The position numbers and the translations under genes are program-made. DNA of 64,000 nucleotides, from the NCBI GenBank assembly GCA_951406725.2, contig OX597814.1, positions 222,580,001-222,644,000 on the forward strand, given 5' to 3'. This DNA comes from Octopus vulgaris (Eukaryota). Shown piece after piece: positions 2,536 through 57,349 of the stretch (the first letter of the stretch is position 1; the number at the start of each line of letters is the position of its first letter). Below the pieces are notes generated by a model. The model was not told the DNA's origin. It saw only the letters and a list, made by a program, of their open reading frames with translations, and made no database searches.

Positions 2536-2678
2536 TAACTTTTATAAATAGTACCCTACCCCGAGCTGAGTGTATGATATATGTACACTCAATTGAAAGT
2601 CTTACTTAGTTGAAAGTCTGTATGCTAAGAAATATAATTACCTAACTCCTATAATTCTGTCATTCATTCATTAATTAA
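2288..2678. repeat. 141-bp inverted repeat around (AAT)n
   Basis: 2288-2428 is the reverse complement of 2538-2678 with about 4 mismatches; spacer contains (AAT)n at 2460-2534. Confidence 0.95.
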
Positions 2679-2680
2679 TT

Positions 2681-3907
2681 CCCAGAGCGCAAGGAGGTCG
2701 AGGCCTGATCCAATTTGAACTAGCTTACAAAACAACCACAATTGGACTGGCCAAATATCTTGAAATAACGAATGACTGGATGCTAAAGCTCGTGGAAAAT
2801 CACGAGAGACGGAAGAAGCTTCATTCTATCATAAAGGAAAGCAAAAAAATTGCTATTGATCTCGTGCAGGATACACAAACTGAACAACCCGAGGGAAGTA
2901 CGGCAAATATTGATGCAAAGAAGGTGAAAATAATGGCAACAAAAAAAGCGCACGAGCAATTGGCTGATAGGTGGGAGGAGAAACCTCTGCACGGCAAATA
3001 TGTGGCCCGTAGCAAACAAGCTGATGTTTACCAGAAGCAAACCCATCAGTGGCTATGGAGCTCAGGGCTAAAAGCAGAGAGCGAAGGTTTCATCCTGGCT
3101 GCTCAAGATCAAAGCCTATTAACCCGGAACTACCAGGCCAATGTGATGAAAAATGGAGCAGACCCAAAATGCCGATTCTGCAACGACATGATTGAAAAAG
3201 TGGACCACCTAATCTCTGGATGTAAAGTCTTAGCACCAGTGGAATATAAATTAAGACATGACAGAGTTGGCCAATATCTACACTGGCTAATAAGTCGGCA
3301 TTACAATATCAAAACTGCCGACAAGTGGTATAATCACCAGCCTGAAGCTGTAACTGAAGGAGAAAATGTAACCATTCTGTGGAACTTTCCAGTACATACA
3401 GATCCGAACAATCAAGGCCAATAAACCAGATATTGTTGTGAAAGACCAAAGCAATAAAGTTTTCTTATTGATCGACATGAGCATCCCCTGTGATCATAAT
3501 ATCTCAGCGAAAGAGTTTGACAAGCTCAGAAAATATAAAGACCTACTCATTGAAATTGAGAATTTGTGGCATCTCAAGGCGGTTACAATACCAGTGATCG
3601 TAGGAGCACTATGAATGATCAAGAAGGGAACCGAAAATTATATGAGAATGATCCCTGGCTTACCATCCCTGCAAGAAGTGCAAAAGATTGTCTTAACTGG
3701 TACATCACACGTATTGAGAAGAGCATTGTCGATGTGAGAACTATTACTACCCATGTATTTTAATTTAACATTAAAAAAAATTTTAAATGAACGAACTAGT
3801 GTGTTTAGTTTAATGGCCTACCAATGTATACTATGAGTTTCTTTGCCCTAGGAGTCGGGAAGACACTCGGCAAGAAATGGAAGCAACTTTGAAAGAAGAA
3901 AAAAAAG
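2681..3907 (+). mobile_element. 5'-truncated non-LTR retrotransposon with restriction-like endonuclease (R4/Dong-like), pseudogenised
   Basis: Translation gives post-RT motif PRAQGGRGL, CCHC knuckle CRFCNDMIEKVDHLISGC, RHDRV, then after a 1-nt insertion near 3404 KPDIVVKD..LIDMSIP..KEFDKLRKYKDL (PD-(D/E)xK RLE). One internal stop; ORF ends TGA at about 3737; short 3'UTR runs into (AAT)n, the known target type of Dong elements. Confidence 0.9.
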
Positions 3908-9450: not shown

Positions 9451-9856
9451 ACATTATATATACATATATATATATATATTTAAAGAACAACTTTCGATCG
9501 CAAATGACCGTGAGATTGCACCTTCCCTCCGCGGCACAATTATATATATCATTATTCCTCTCTTCCTGTTTTCGATTTGATCTTACAAATACATTCCCTA
9601 CTTTTAGGCCACTTTAAATAAAACCCTTGATACAATAGCACTGTGTACAAGCTCTATACTTAGGAATGACCAATTTTAGATACTATTGGATTATACTCAC
9701 ACGGTATTGCAATATTATATGTATACCATTCTGCCTAAATAATGGATCTACAAATGTAATATCCCTGCAAATATCACATCTCTTTTCATTCCTCCACTTC
9801 ACTCTCTATTTCCTTTCTTACCTACAGTAACTATTGCTTGACTACTTTTTCACACC

Positions 9857-9904
9857 GTCTCCGAAGAAGGGATATATTAAATACCCTGGAAACAGCTGTA
9901 AGAC
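9857..9904 (+). ncRNA. Type I hammerhead ribozyme motif (core variant CCGAAGA)
   Basis: GTCT-CCGAAGA-AGGG(atatattaaata)CCCT-G-GAAA-C-AGCT-GTA-AGAC; stem I GTCT/AGAC, palindromic loop III. Confidence 0.7.
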
Positions 9905-10144
9905 CTTCTATTTAGAAATGTTCTAAAATCATCACAGCCTTGGTTTTTTTTATTTCATTCTGAAAAAAAATTATATATATATAACATCCAAATTTCCTCA
10001 TTTTACATTCTACATTGAGAGAAGAAAGAGATGGACGCTTCAATTCTATGCTGCTGCCGCATTATGTCGTACGCGAATGAGAGGATTTGCATCCCCAACC
10101 AAGAATTTTTGATGTAACACATGTCCTTGTGGAAGCAGTTGTGC

Positions 10145-10222
10145 GCGGCTGAAGAAGGCCACAGACATACATTATGCATTGTTATAAATCTGTCTAATAA
10201 AGGCCCGAAACATATGTACCGC
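10145..10222 (+). ncRNA. Type I hammerhead ribozyme, long stem II
   Basis: GCGG-CTGAAGA-A-GGCC...GGCC-C-GAAA-C-ATAT-GTA-CCGC; intact core, stem I GCGG/CCGC, GUA cleavage triplet. Confidence 0.85.
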
Positions 10223-10253
10223 TGAATCCTTCGCATTATGTTTTTATTTTGAT

Positions 10254-10322
<69 letters not shown>

Positions 10323-10383
10323 GTATGTATAACGAAAAAGTCAAGGTAGAACATGCTAAAATAATTTTATCATACAAAACACT

Positions 10384-10423
10384 TTAGTATTGGTTTCAGT
10401 CATTGAGAGTTTTTGGACTCTAA
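10384..10423 (-). ncRNA. Probable decayed hammerhead (core lost)
   Basis: - strand TTAG-AGTC(...)GACT-GAAAC-CAATA-CTAA; stems I and II and GAAAC are retained, CUGANGA is missing. Confidence 0.3.
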
Positions 10424-10582
10424 GTATGGAAAACAATTAAAGTTTGGAAAAATTAAATGAAATTTTTTTTTAAAAGAATATTTGCAAAGTATTCAAATAC
10501 AAGGGGCAATTTCCTGGCTTCTGCTTGTCTCTGTCTCTCTTGTTTACTCTTGTGGGTTCGAGGTTGTTGTGAATTCTTGGCA

Positions 10583-10966
10583 GAGAAGAAGAAGAAGAAG
10601 AAGAAGAAGAAGAAGAAGAAGAAGAAGAAGAAGGAGGAGGAGGAAGAAGAAGAAGAAGAAGGAGAAGAAGAAGAAGAAGAAGAAGAAGGAGAAGAAGGAG
10701 AAGAAGAAGAAGAAGAAGGAGAAGAAGAAGGAGAAGGAGAAGAAGAAGAAGAAGAAGAAGAAGAAGAAGAAGGAGACGGAGAAGGAGAAGAAGAAGAAGA
10801 AGAAGAAGAAGAAGAAGGAGAAGAAGGAGGAGAAGAAGAAGAAGAAGAAGGAGAAGGAGAAGAAGAAGAAGAAGAAGAAGAAGAAGAAGAAGGAGAAGTA
10901 GAAGGAGAAGGAGAAGAAGAACAAGAACAAGAACAAGAACAACAACAACAAGAACAAGAACAAGAA
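10583..10966. repeat. Compound (GAA/GGA/CAA)n purine-rich microsatellite
   Basis: Direct reading; source of the spurious poly-K/E/S/F ORFs. Confidence 0.97.
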
Positions 10967-10971
10967 TGTGG

Positions 10972-11346
10972 GAGTGGTATGATGGTGGTAGGATGATAGA
11001 CGCTCAAGTGCGCTGAAAGTGACTTGTTGTGAATGGTAGTAGTGATTGAATTCTTGAGATAAATCTCTTTTGAATGTATTGTTTTTAATATTTGCACAGG
11101 TGTTATTCTAAATAGCGGTAGTAGTAAAGTAAGGAATGAAGCGGCAGAGAGGAAGACGAAGAAGGAGAGGAGAAAGAATAATAAAAGAATGCGTGAGTGG
11201 TATGATACTTGTAGGTTGTTAAATGGTCAAGTGACCTAAAAGTGACTCGTTGTGGATTATAGCAGTGATTGGGACTGTTTTTAATGAATTCATCGGTATC
11301 TCTTTTGAAGGTATCATTTTTAATATTTACGTGTGTGTTATTCTAA
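10972..11346. repeat. Diverged tandem duplication, period about 225 bp
   Basis: gagtggtatgat..tcaagtg..aaagtgact..atctcttttgaa..tttttaatattt..gtgttattctaa occurs at about 10972-11110 and 11195-11346. Confidence 0.75.
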
Positions 11347-11422
11347 GGTCGTTGTGGATATTTAAAAAAAACGGCGGGAACTTAGTTGCCATCCGAATAT
11401 ATATATATATATATATTCGTAT

Positions 11423-11484
11423 GCACCTGATGAAAAAGTACAACGTATGATGCCCCTAATGAGCTTTTGAAAGAGCTGTAGTAC
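11423..11484 (+). ncRNA. Degenerate type I hammerhead
   Basis: GCAC-CTGATGA-AAAAG...CTTTT-GAAA-G-AGCT-GTA-GTAC; one mismatch each in stems I and III. Confidence 0.6.
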
Positions 11485-12358
11485 TCGATCAACTCCTCGG
11501 TCTTTTTCATTACAGATTATCGTATCATCAGCAATATTTGTCGCTTTCGAAATGGCTGAATGAAGCTAATACCATCGTGATGAAAGACTGACTGAAACAC
11601 AGAGATAACATTAAGCACACGAACTATTCACAGTAACACAATAACTGGCAGTAACTCTTCTGTACTAATTCACTTTCAATAGTATCAAACACTCTCAACA
11701 ATTATCGTAACGCGATTTCAATATTATAACATTCAAACTCCCTCACTAAATAAAATTTATTCGTAAAAAAAATCAACTAAACAGATTTCGTCATTTTCGT
11801 CTATACACAACTGCTGACATCCAGCGATGCAACTAAAAGTCAGCTCCCCAAATTAATAGTCAAATACAGCCTCCGGTAATCAGCAATCAGCTTCAACTAT
11901 CACTGGGCACTACATTCAACAACCAGAAATCTAACTTAGTGAACATAACTTAGTGTAATTGTGATGTTCCCTGGTAGGCATTTCACCTAATTTAATTTAC
12001 TAGTATACCAGAACCTGGATCATACATTACTCATTGATGTTACTACCTCATGGTGTTGTGTAGATCTGGCTACAATTAACACACTTTCCGCACAACTAAC
12101 TTATTAATTTGATTATTTTCCTAATCCCCTTAATGACACACTAGATCCTAAATCGTACGAGCCATGTTTTATATTTCCTTTTTCTACAGGCCCAACGATC
12201 TTAAACGTAGATATATGAGCGTGCGCATGCATATTCGTGCGGATGAATTTGTATCTCTATAATTACAAATAGAAGATCGTTAACTTGCGAATATTTTTTT
12301 GTCGCACGATTTCTTATTTCTGGCATTACATTTAATTAAATTTCATATATATTTTGTG

Positions 12359-12397
<39 letters not shown>

Positions 12398-12623
12398 GTG
12401 TATTTACAATTATACTTCATATTTTAGCACTACTTTAATATCATACGATTATATTCGCTTGTAAATATTTATTCTCAAATGTTTATGTACTTGTAGTTAT
12501 ATTCTATTCCCTTACTCTCATGTAGATTACATACTGGTATATTAGAATATGTGTATATCGAAGAGGGTATATATATATATATATATATAAGTTCAGCAAC
12601 AATATATATAAGTTCAGCAATAA

Positions 12624-12709
12624 TTGGCTGAAGAGCACTCAGCATCTTAAATCTGCTGTAATACTTGCAACTTTTAATAAAATGTTGTAATGCGAAACAA
12701 TTGTACCAA
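12624..12709 (+). ncRNA. Type I hammerhead ribozyme, long stem II
   Basis: TTGG-CTGAAGA-GCA...TGC-GAAA-C-AATT-GTA-CCAA; fully canonical core. Confidence 0.9.
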
Positions 12710-12790
12710 ATTAGCGGAGTCATTCTTGTTGCTTATTTTTGATTACATGTATATATATATACGAGAAAGAAGCAACAAGAATGGATTAGT

Positions 12791-12881
12791 TTTTAGTACA
12801 ATTGTTTCATACAAAGACAGGCTTTATTACAAGTTGCAAAAATTGCAGCAGATAAAAGTGTCCCGTACTCATCAGCTAAAA
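12791..12881 (-). ncRNA. Type I hammerhead ribozyme, long stem II
   Basis: - strand TTTTAG-CTGATGA-GTACGGGACA...TGTCTTTGTAT-GAAA-C-AATT-GTA-CTAAAA; 6-bp stem I. Confidence 0.9.
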
Positions 12882-13404
12882 TACATTTGAGTTCTCCAGA
12901 CATCTTAGTGGGTGAGGTTATACTCATGAAATATTGGAGATAGTTCCATTAGAGGCAGATATAGGTTGTAAACAGTTTTCCAAAGTTCCTTAATGATGAT
13001 GCACAGTCTTATCACAGATTTTTAAAAACTTATTAGTTTCGAAGAGAAGATGAATCAATCCATAGTGTAGATTTTAAATTTAAAAGGCCTGGTTCATGGC
13101 CCAAACTTCCGGGTTCTTATACACATATTAGGAAAACTGAAGGACCGCTGCAATACGTGTTTGAACCTGAGAGCGGAATAACGTTGAATAAAATCATAAT
13201 TAACTCATCCCCCTGTATTTTCTCCTACCCAAACCCTGGAACATTTCAACACCCTTCGGTATTCGACTACTGTTTTTCCCACCTTATTTTCCACTTATGT
13301 GATCACCTGTATATATACATATATATATATATATTTATACACGCATACAATAATATAAATAATATATATGCGTATATACAAACGCATATGTACATACTCA
13401 CATC

Positions 13405-34870: not shown

Positions 34871-35452
34871 AAGGCGGCGAGCTGGCAGAAACGTTAGCAC
34901 GCCGGGCGGAATGCTTAGCCGTAATCTGTCTGCCGTTACGTTCTGAGTTCAAATTCCACCGAGGTCGACTTTGCTTTCATCCTTTCGGGGTCGATAAATT
35001 AAATACCAGTTACGTACTGGAGTCAATATAATTGACTTAATTCGTTTGTCTCTCCCTTTTTTGTCCTCTCTGTGTTTAGCCCCTTGTGGGTAGTAAAGAA
35101 ATAGGTATTTCTTCTGCCGCTACGTTCTGAGTTCAAATTCCGCCGAGGTCGACCTTGCCTTTCATTCTTTCGGGGTCGATAAATGAAGTACCAGTTTCGC
35201 ACTGGGTTAGATATAATCCACTTAATCCGTTTGTCTGTCCTTGTTTGTCCTCTCTATGTTTATCCCCTTGTGGCTAGTAAAGAAATAGGTATTTCGTCTG
35301 TCTTTACGTTCTGAATTCAAATTCCGCGAGGTTGACTTTGCCTTTCATCCTTTCGGGGTCGATAAATTAAGTACCACTTTCGTACTGGGGTCGATTTAAT
35401 CGACTGGTCCCTACAAAAAATTTCAGGCCTTCTGCCTAGAGTAGAAAAGAAT
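34871..35452 (+). mobile_element. SINE family B, head plus 3 tandem units
   Basis: Unit starts at 34921, 35105 and 35289 (period 184); flanked by TSD-like ttcaatc(c/a)tttaag. Confidence 0.9.
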
Positions 35453-56942: not shown

Positions 56943-57349
56943 TTATTTCTTTATTGCTCAAAGGGACTAAACATAGAAGGGACAAATAAGGACAGATAAA
57001 GGGATTAAGTCGATTACATCAACTCCAGTGTTCAACTGGTACTTATTTAATCGACGCCGAAAGGATGAAAGGTAAAGTCGACCTCGGCGGAATTTGAACT
57101 TAGGACGGCAGAAGTAATACCTATTTCTATTTCTTTACTACCCACAAGGGGCTAAACACAGAGAGGACAAACAAGGACAGACAAACGGATTAAGTCAAAT
57201 ATATCGACCCCAGTGCGTAACTGGTACTTAATTTCTCGACCCCGAAAGGATGACAGGCAAAGTCGACCTCGGCGGAATTTGAACTCAGAACGTAACGGCA
57301 GACGAAATACCGCTAAGCAGTTCTCCTTGCGTGCTAACGATTCTGCCTT
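56943..57349 (-). mobile_element. SINE family B, 2 units
   Basis: Unit starts at 57310 and 57120; TSD actcaagatc(a/g)tatatt. Confidence 0.9.

What the first reader, a model, noticed from the sequence alone, without database searches (positions are those of the whole stretch)
9868..12828. Poly(A) signal nested inside hammerhead stem/loop II at canonical distance from the cleavage site
Seen: ATTAAA at 9876-9881 (19 nt before predicted cleavage after 9900), AATAAA at 10196-10201 (17 nt), AATAAA at 12676-12681 (24 nt) and AATAAA on - at 12823-12828 (26 nt). All lie within the stem II insert, and U/GU-rich tracts follow (ttatgtttttattttg, ttcttgttgcttattttt, tggtttttttt). Known: CPSF cleaves about 10-30 nt after AAUAAA with a downstream GU/U element. 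Inference: a combined 3'-processing module in which self-cleavage and polyadenylation compete for the same site, or the HHR fold masks the signal. Caveat: AT-rich DNA yields these hexamers by chance, and two of the four copies are related.
Basis: partly seen in the sequence, partly recalled or inferred. Interest (0 to 1): 0.72.

Follow-up and report, generated by a model that had tools for sequence, protein, structure and literature searches.

The report
Poly(A)-like signal inside retroelement hammerheads
The four motifs are hammerhead-type (predicted self-cutting) RNA motifs in the tail ends of a known group of jumping genes; one large lineage keeps an AATAAA/ATTAAA word inside the motif, likely the element's own transcript-end signal, but most families place it elsewhere or lack it, so a dedicated ribozyme-plus-poly(A) switch is unlikely.

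Summary
The four hammerhead-like motifs and hexamers are at the stated places. Each is the 3' end of a 5'-truncated Penelope-like retroelement of the Hydra clade (RWK, DKT, CxCx5C, (TA)n targets), whose hammerheads are published; the 40-68 nt stem II (14,582 genome matches) is not in the published table. Across families the position is not conserved: 2 of 31 families carry AWTAAA in stem II 10-30 nt before the cut (1.4 expected), 7 carry it after the cut, 22 neither. Inside the lineage of copies 3/4 it is held: 19 of 22 subfamilies, toggling AATAAA/ATTAAA, against 5-7 under neutral simulation, without consistent pairing. Best reading (0.5): the element's own poly(A) signal, overlapping the ribozyme in a compact terminal repeat; masking or designed competition is not supported. 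Use in RNA is untested. An unchecked scan note saw a signal 10 nt after the cut in another genome's Penelope-like element.

The parts
9549..9971 (+). Copy 1: 5'-truncated 3' end of an older Hydra-type Penelope-like family (short stem II family), between (TA)n tracts
   Evidence: 89% identical to L204 over 9549-9983; L204, L206, L105 carry a GIY-YIG-type endonuclease fragment upstream of the motif; best genomic hits 88-90% identical
9857..9904 (+). Hammerhead motif 1: stem I 4 bp, core CCGAAGA, 21-nt stem II insert, GAAA-CAGCTG-TA, predicted cut after 9900
   Evidence: close relatives mostly read CCGATGA
9876..9881 (+). ATTAAA in the stem II loop; a private variant of subfamily AATAAA; absent from most sister subfamilies
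   Evidence: 25 cores among the 30 best hits: AATAAA 16, ATTAAA 1 (this copy), none 8; 3 of 10 subfamily representatives
9913..9920 (+). Decayed copy of a TATAAATG word that this family keeps 13-20 nt after the cut (TATA-like or variant poly(A) signal), followed by the U/GU tract at 9941-9951
   Evidence: TATAAA in 20 of 25 relatives; coordinates
9983..10255 (+). Copy 2: 3' end of a young Hydra-type family (B), inserted in the (TA)n tract at the end of copy 1
   Evidence: 94-95% identical to terminal repeats of full-length L183 (repeat-ORF-repeat, 4,684-nt unit)
10145..10222 (+). Hammerhead motif 2: 51-nt stem II insert with TATAAA at 10183-10188 and AATAAA at 10196-10201, GAAA-CATATG-TA, predicted cut after 10218
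   Evidence: AATAAA predicted unpaired in an 8-nt bulge
10236..10251 (+). U-rich tract just before the element's end
11427..11480 (+). Fifth, degenerate hammerhead-like core (broken stem III palindrome, 2-bp stem I), no hexamer
   Evidence: its 5 genomic relatives showed no core
12620..12745 (+). Copy 3: short 3' end of lineage C, with hammerhead motif 12624-12709 (59-nt insert, AATAAA 12676-12681, cut after 12705) and U/GU tract 12723-12740
   Evidence: (87% to L134/L135)
12746..12761 (.). (TA)n-type tract shared by copies 3 and 4 (tail to tail)
12762..13081 (-). Copy 4: 3' end of a young lineage C family, with hammerhead motif 12881-12791 (60-nt insert, AATAAA 12828-12823, cut after 12797), U/GU tract 12781-12764, end 35 nt after the cut
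   Evidence: 98% identical to the 3' end of full-length L062/L061; best hits 99-100% identical; ends

Best explanation
The four motifs are type I hammerhead-like motifs in the terminal repeats (pLTRs) of 5'-truncated Hydra-clade Penelope-like retrotransposons, and the hexamer is likely the element's own poly(A) signal, which lies inside an expanded stem II in some lineages and after the cut in others rather than being part of the ribozyme. Shown: element identity, tandem repeat-ORF-repeat layout, (TA)n insertion, two fixed 3' ends without A-tails, constraint on AATAAA/ATTAAA in lineage C, shifting position between families. Inferred: a transcript from the upstream repeat would be cut and polyadenylated in the downstream repeat, about 20 nt after the hexamer (the CA of GAAACA in copy 4), with the U/GU tract as downstream element; this mRNA would lack the ribozyme's last strand. 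New copies would come from read-through, uncut RNA, since they extend 35 or about 150 nt past the cut. The ribozyme would need a dimer (palindromic stem III) and would act rarely or late. The overlap is likely a by-product of a compact repeat.
For: Element: L062 and L183 are repeat-ORF-repeat units of 4,659 and 4,684 nt with YRDD, RWK/RWA, DKT, CxCx5C, GIY-YIG-like, CxxC and CxH motifs, the Hydra diagnostics of PMC8557442 section 11. Constraint: lineage C was sampled with a pattern that does not name the hexamer (6,831 matches); 70 of 75 copies and 19 of 22 subfamilies (mean identity 63%) keep AWTAAA 20-26 nt before the cut; the 3 others read GATAAA, AGTAAA, ATTACA, recalled as known variant signals; 7 AATAAA and 12 ATTAAA, with at least two switches on the tree; neutral simulation keeps 4.7-6.7 of 22, P at most 0.005; no consensus helix covers the hexamer. 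TATAAA never appears at that place in the 22. Floating position: hexamer ends at -24, -17, +12, +9 (AGTAAA), +25, +16 in different families; 4,709 inside versus 4,324 after the cut; none of the 26 published Hydra rows has it in stem II, 5 have it before the core and 2 just after the cut (read by eye). In full-length L183 the stem II word is the only AATAAA in a 1,978-nt 3' UTR. Copies end at fixed points in (TA)n with 0 A-tails in 43 + 14 copies, in line with internal initiation on unprocessed RNA shown for a lizard element (PMC11167929).
Against: No RNA end data. 22 of 31 families have no AWTAAA in either place; over insert plus 70 nt the excess is small (9.8 versus 6.2) and the antisense word is as common (14.9 versus 12.6). 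Lineage C 3' UTRs hold 9 and 6 upstream AWTAAA, above expectation (4.2, 3.6), and the L062 ORF 13, which could pre-empt the stem II word; the scarcity in L183 is not significant (1 versus 1.4). A second block, TGATGTAAT, is as conserved as the hexamer (partly by my selection pattern), so the insert may be a promoter. Hexamer position did not correlate with the element's end across 11 families (rho about 0). The same word in the upstream repeat would have to be silenced or lie before the start site; unknown. The simulation assumes one rate for all sites and my 20 hand-picked divergent copies were chosen with the sequence in view.
Confidence: 0.5

Rival explanations
1. The A-rich word is a DNA-level promoter element or a binding site for the element's protein, not a poly(A) signal; the long stem II insert would be the pLTR promoter (upstream TGATGYAAT site, AT-rich box, start near the GTA).
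For: pLTRs hold the promoter and start site (PMC2377424; PMC8557442); a TATA box plus Inr was noted in a rotifer pLTR (PMC3846280). The copy 1 family keeps TATAAA after the cut in 20 of 25 relatives; copy 2 has TATAAAT aligned with lineage C's word. TGATGYAAT, recalled as a bZIP-type site, ties with the hexamer for conservation. In L062 the word begins about 31 nt before the A of GTA.
Against: In lineage C the word toggles AATAAA/ATTAAA and is never TATAAA in 22 subfamilies. TATAWAWR is not enriched across families (3.0 versus 2.4). The one mapped Penelope promoter is TATA-less and internal.
Confidence: 0.2
2. One reading: a selected module in which self-cleavage and polyadenylation compete for one site, or the ribozyme fold hides the signal.
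For: In lineages C and B the predicted CPSF window covers GAAAC..GTA, so the two events would exclude each other; constraint in lineage C; 4,709 copies with this layout.
Against: 2 of 31 families, not above chance; 4,324 copies have the word after the cut; 0 of 26 published Hydra rows have it in stem II (by eye); distances 17-26 nt vary; the hexamer is not predicted to be sequestered; such minimal ribozymes cleave poorly and as dimers (PMC4209133), and no RNA-seq reads began or ended at the cut of the lizard element (PMC11167929).
Confidence: 0.12
3. The word has no signal role: it is an AT-rich strand of the long stem II, inherited within a few high-copy lineages.
For: No family-level enrichment; in some subfamilies the AAA can pair with a conserved TTT on the 5' side (pairing up to 0.98); copy 1's family gains and loses it freely.
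Against: Retention far above neutral simulation and no consensus helix; pairing ranges 0.04-0.98 while the word stays; switches fall between the two canonical forms.
Confidence: 0.15

Closest known systems
Hydra-clade Penelope-like elements, including Hydra-1_Obim (Craig et al. 2021, PMC8557442; passages, sections 10-11, supplement part 2 of 59 and search hits seen)
   Same: RWK, DKT, CxCx5C linker, C-terminal GIY-YIG with CxxC and CxH, (TA)n targets, canonical hammerhead near the 3' end, U/GU-rich run after the cut in many rows.
   Different: Units here are 4.7 kb with a long low-complexity linker and a 1.6-2 kb 3' UTR (published: generally under 3 kb); stem II inserts of 40-68 nt against about 11-26 nt in the published table; no poly(A) signal discussed in the passages read.
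[quoted passage not shown]
   Same: Type I core, short helix I, palindromic helix III implying dimers, thousands of truncated copies, inverted pairs 100-700 bp apart.
   Different: Helix II there is 6-8 bp; here a long, weakly folded insert carrying conserved sequence blocks; AATAAA occurs 0 times in that paper's text.
Poseidon element PAc of Anolis (Frangieh et al. 2024, PMC11167929; parts 1-2 of 4 read)
   Same: Two internal reverse-transcription starts defining the tail; unprocessed RNA as template.
   Different: Different clade; ORF starts inside stem II there, about 200 nt after the cut here; the two ends lie about 75-115 nt apart here, not 30-40.
Clec2 3' UTR hammerhead (as described in review PMC6765202; passages read)
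   Same: A hammerhead whose cut separates the message from its poly(A) signal; matches the geometry of the families with the word after the cut.
   Different: Host gene, split ribozyme, tested in cells; in the window's copies the word is before the cut.
AATAAA plus GT-rich stretch in retroviral and Metaviridae LTRs (PMC3601003; passages read)
   Same: A terminal repeat carrying promoter, AATAAA and downstream GT-rich element.
   Different: True LTRs with integrase ends; no ribozyme.

Membership tests
Hydra-clade Penelope-like element | Single ORF with RT and C-terminal GIY-YIG-type endonuclease | tested here: met
   YRDD and IY.C...YIG/YLG in L062, L183, L184, L188; by motif only, Pfam and PDB gave no hit
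Hydra-clade Penelope-like element | RWK and DKT motifs, GxKF/Y absent from the N-terminus | tested here: met
   L062 RWK 56, DKT 143; L183 RWA 45, DKT 132 (definition)
Hydra-clade Penelope-like element | CxCx5C linker; CxxC and CxH in the endonuclease | tested here: met
   Lineages B and C; copy 1's family shows CxCx5C in L105 and L206 translations; family A has CxxC and CxH but no CxCx5C
Hydra-clade Penelope-like element | Insertion into (TA)n; tandem and inverted pLTR layout | tested here: met
Hydra-clade Penelope-like element | RT phylogeny with reference Hydra sequences | not tested
   Reference proteins were seen only as text in a supplement
Neptune/Nematis Penelope-like elements | CX2-5CxxC linker | tested here: not met
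   no match in 7 of 7 translations
Type I minimal pLTR hammerhead | Core CUGANGA / GAAA / GUH | tested here: met
   copies 2-4 exact; copy 1 has CCGAAGA
Type I minimal pLTR hammerhead | Short covarying helix I and palindromic helix III | tested here: met
   row +3 (my structure string was entered 3 columns off; the +3 row is the intended helix): 21 of 21 cells paired, 3 of 3 pairs changed on both sides
Type I minimal pLTR hammerhead | Helix II of 6-8 bp closed by G10.1-C11.1 | tested here: inconclusive
   Inserts of 21-60 nt with weak folds (z -1.2 to -1.6); G-C closure in copies 2, 3, G-U in 4, none in 1
Type I minimal pLTR hammerhead | Self-cleavage | not testable with these tools
   needs in vitro assay
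Canonical metazoan poly(A) site | AAUAAA/AUUAAA 10-30 nt before a CA, with U/GU element downstream | tested here: met
   geometry in copies 2-4; copy 1's tract lies 60 nt from the hexamer
Canonical metazoan poly(A) site | Polyadenylated RNA ends at the site | not testable with these tools
   only assembled contigs were offered
Non-LTR retrozyme | Short non-coding tandem repeats with one ribozyme per unit | tested here: not met
   dispersed truncated ends of coding elements (definition)

The most novel reading that the evidence does not exclude
In one lineage of Hydra-type elements (over 6,800 genomic copies) stem II of the hammerhead has expanded into a 3'-processing cassette, so that CPSF cleavage falls inside the ribozyme core: polyadenylation (mRNA), dimer-dependent self-cleavage and read-through (template for reverse transcription) are three mutually exclusive fates of one RNA, giving the pLTR hammerhead a regulatory role.
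Probability: 0.15. Interest if true: 0.7.

Novelty: new variant of a known kind. Interest (0 to 1): 0.33.

Why it matters
The role of pLTR hammerheads is stated as unclear in PMC8557442, and 3'-end formation of canonical Penelope-like transcripts is not mapped in the passages I read. Young, near-identical families with a constrained poly(A)-like word before the cut (B, C) or after it (A) form a natural comparison for asking whether cleavage, polyadenylation and reverse transcription interact. The long stem II also explains why Rfam models miss over 14,000 such motifs in this genome. If the word is a working signal, thousands of truncated copies could act as stray poly(A) sites in host introns.

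Tried and rejected
Rfam at gathering and at E up to 10: no hammerhead family. Pfam and PDB sequence searches with the ORF: nothing. RNA: no RNA holder listed; 24 runs, all contigs, kind guessed. Laid 4 runs on L061:4100-5960 and 4 (2 the same) on L062:1812-3000 (6 of 24 runs in all): contigs bridge hexamer and cut site unbroken, no A-tail among the listed loose ends (9 and 51 more not shown), no splice joint in the 5' UTR; contigs show neither strand nor ends, so this decides nothing. Search for genomic copies ending in an A-tail after the hexamer: 1 hit for lineage C, which is an expanded internal A-run, 0 for B; uninformative on signal use because these elements do not copy from tails. Idea that the hexamer tracks the element's end: failed over 11 families; 39-91 nt in the 6 multi-copy families, post hoc. 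Depletion of upstream hexamers in 3' UTRs: not seen. TATA enrichment across families: not seen. Whole-motif monomer folds are no better than shuffles (z -0.2 to +1.0). Paper searches for the overlap; no listed paper describes a poly(A) signal inside a pLTR hammerhead, but subscription journals are not held, Lunse et al. 2017 was not held, and I opened only one supplement (PMC8557442, 1 part of 59 plus search hits); supplements of PMC4209133 and Repbase notes may mention it.

Full report
Observation. The U/GU tracts are present. Rfam does not see them. The genome G000 holds 14,582 matches with a 40-68 nt insert and 7,763 with a 12-39 nt insert for one class of stem III loop, against 56 and 45 for reversed patterns, and 8,266 versus 520 for other loops. 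Stem I covaries and stem III is palindromic in many different ways, the dimer-type layout described in PMC4209133 (parts 1-2 of 4 read). Cleavage is untested.

What they belong to. Copy 4 is 98% identical to the 3' end of a full element, L062: motif, about 210 nt, a 941-codon stop-free frame, about 1.6 kb of 3' UTR, motif again. Copy 2 matches the repeats of L183. Relatives of copy 1 carry an endonuclease fragment upstream. Copy 3 is a sister subfamily of copy 4. The proteins have RWK/RWA, DKT, YRDD, CxCx5C, a GIY-YIG-like core, CxxC and CxH and lack CX2-5CxxC, the diagnostics of the Hydra clade (PMC8557442 section 11), for which hammerheads and an octopus member are published (supplement). 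Copies end at two fixed points in (TA)n: 33 of 43 near the first end (35 nt after the cut by inspection) and 9 at 151-156 in lineage C; 7 and 6 of 14 in B; none has an A-tail. Copy 2 sits in copy 1's TA tract and copies 3 and 4 share one, which explains the cluster.

Across families. From loci taken mainly from the first matches on contig C1 plus hand-picked representatives, 157 of 187 motifs were kept (30 dropped for stem I under 3 bp or duplicate cores; at least one dropped row, L177, carries AATAAA). At 68% clustering, 2 of 31 families have AWTAAA in stem II 10-30 nt before the cut (sum 2.0, expected 1.39, P=0.41, antisense 2.2); 7 have it within 40 nt after the cut (6.9 versus 3.0, P=0.018, but antisense 10.4); 22 have neither. 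At 62% it is 1 of 19 (P=0.20); at 75%, where lineage C splits, 5 of 40 (P=0.004). Genome-wide, 4,709 matches have it inside (inserts 21-69 nt; the short copy 1 family is excluded by the pattern) and 4,324 after the cut, each roughly a third of the long-insert set. By eye, 0 of 26 published Hydra rows have it in their short stem II, 5 before the core and 2 just after the cut; not tested against background. Copy 1's ATTAAA is a private change from AATAAA (16 of 25 close relatives), and only 3 of 10 subfamilies of that family have the word.

Within lineage C. A pattern without the hexamer gave 6,831 matches. Of 75 sampled copies 70 have AWTAAA 20-26 nt before the cut; of 22 subfamilies (48-85% identical) 19 do, 7 AATAAA and 12 ATTAAA, the rest GATAAA, AGTAAA, ATTACA. 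Seven-column windows over it need 9 parsimony steps against a median of 22; only TGATGTAAT, partly fixed by my pattern, does as well. One-rate neutral simulation on the tree keeps 4.7-6.7 of 22 at matched rates (P at most 0.005). Predicted pairing of the word ranges 0.04-0.98, mean 0.60 against 0.62 elsewhere, and the consensus fold has no helix there. So it is held as sequence, and not masked.

Mechanism. Most likely (0.5) it is the element's poly(A) signal: in copy 4, hexamer, 20 nt, CA of GAAACA, about 21 nt, U/GU tract, element end (the spacing rule is established knowledge). Polyadenylation there would remove the ribozyme's last strand; new copies, which run 35 or 150 nt further, would come from read-through RNA, as shown for a lizard element where unprocessed RNA is the substrate and no reads start or stop at the cut (PMC11167929). 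Against: many upstream hexamers in lineage C UTRs and ORF, no word in most families, no correlation with the element end, and a promoter reading fits the same distances, with TATAAATG kept after the cut in copy 1's family (PMC2377424 and PMC3846280 passages). RNA contigs could not decide (see Tried and rejected).

Known versus new. Hammerheads in Hydra-clade pLTRs are known. Not found in my searches: the very long stem II and a constrained poly(A)-type word within it. Other papers seen: bioRxiv 10.64898/2026.07.22.740005 (part 1 of 5), PMC6765202, PMC3601003, PMC13282606 (passages). An unchecked scan note (e1-9317248) reports a signal 10 nt after the cut in a shark-like genome, agreeing with a floating pLTR signal. 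Verdict: real, new variant of a known kind, interest 0.33; coupled switch 0.12-0.15.

Noticed in passing
window 11427-11480 +: Fifth, degenerate hammerhead-like core directly after a (TA)n run, no hexamer; five distant genomic relatives showed no core.
   Followed up: partly
window 2675-3424 +: Stop-free frame resembling the C-terminal part of a non-LTR retrotransposon ORF (recalled as R4/Dong-like; similar frame in L030).
   Followed up: no
window 34928-35405 and 56944-57292: Tandem arrays of about 184-185 nt units that look like a tRNA-type SINE family.
   Followed up: no
window 10962-11111 and 11185-11346: Diverged direct duplication of about 150 nt, 79-84% alike, next to a 380-nt (AGA)n run.
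   Followed up: no
L061:5340-5548: Two adjacent 104-nt repeats in the 3' UTR of lineage C, partly matching the start of the terminal repeat.
   Followed up: no
L062:2133-2230: Possible 5' UTR intron (CAA/GTAAAT donor-like site, acceptor-like AG just before the ATG); no splice joint in the laid contigs.
   Followed up: partly
L062:2172-4995; L186:1147-2329: Long Asn/Ser-rich low-complexity linker between RT and endonuclease; family A lacks the CxCx5C motif yet ends in (TA)n.
   Followed up: partly
lineage C stem II, e.g. window 12654-12662: TGMTGYAAT block as conserved as the hexamer; also present in L008 and reversed in L024/L028; could be a hairpin, a bZIP-type site or a UGUA element.
   Followed up: partly
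L062:770-1238, L064, L032: Different Hydra-type families are nested in one another's (TA)n ends, as in the window.
   Followed up: partly
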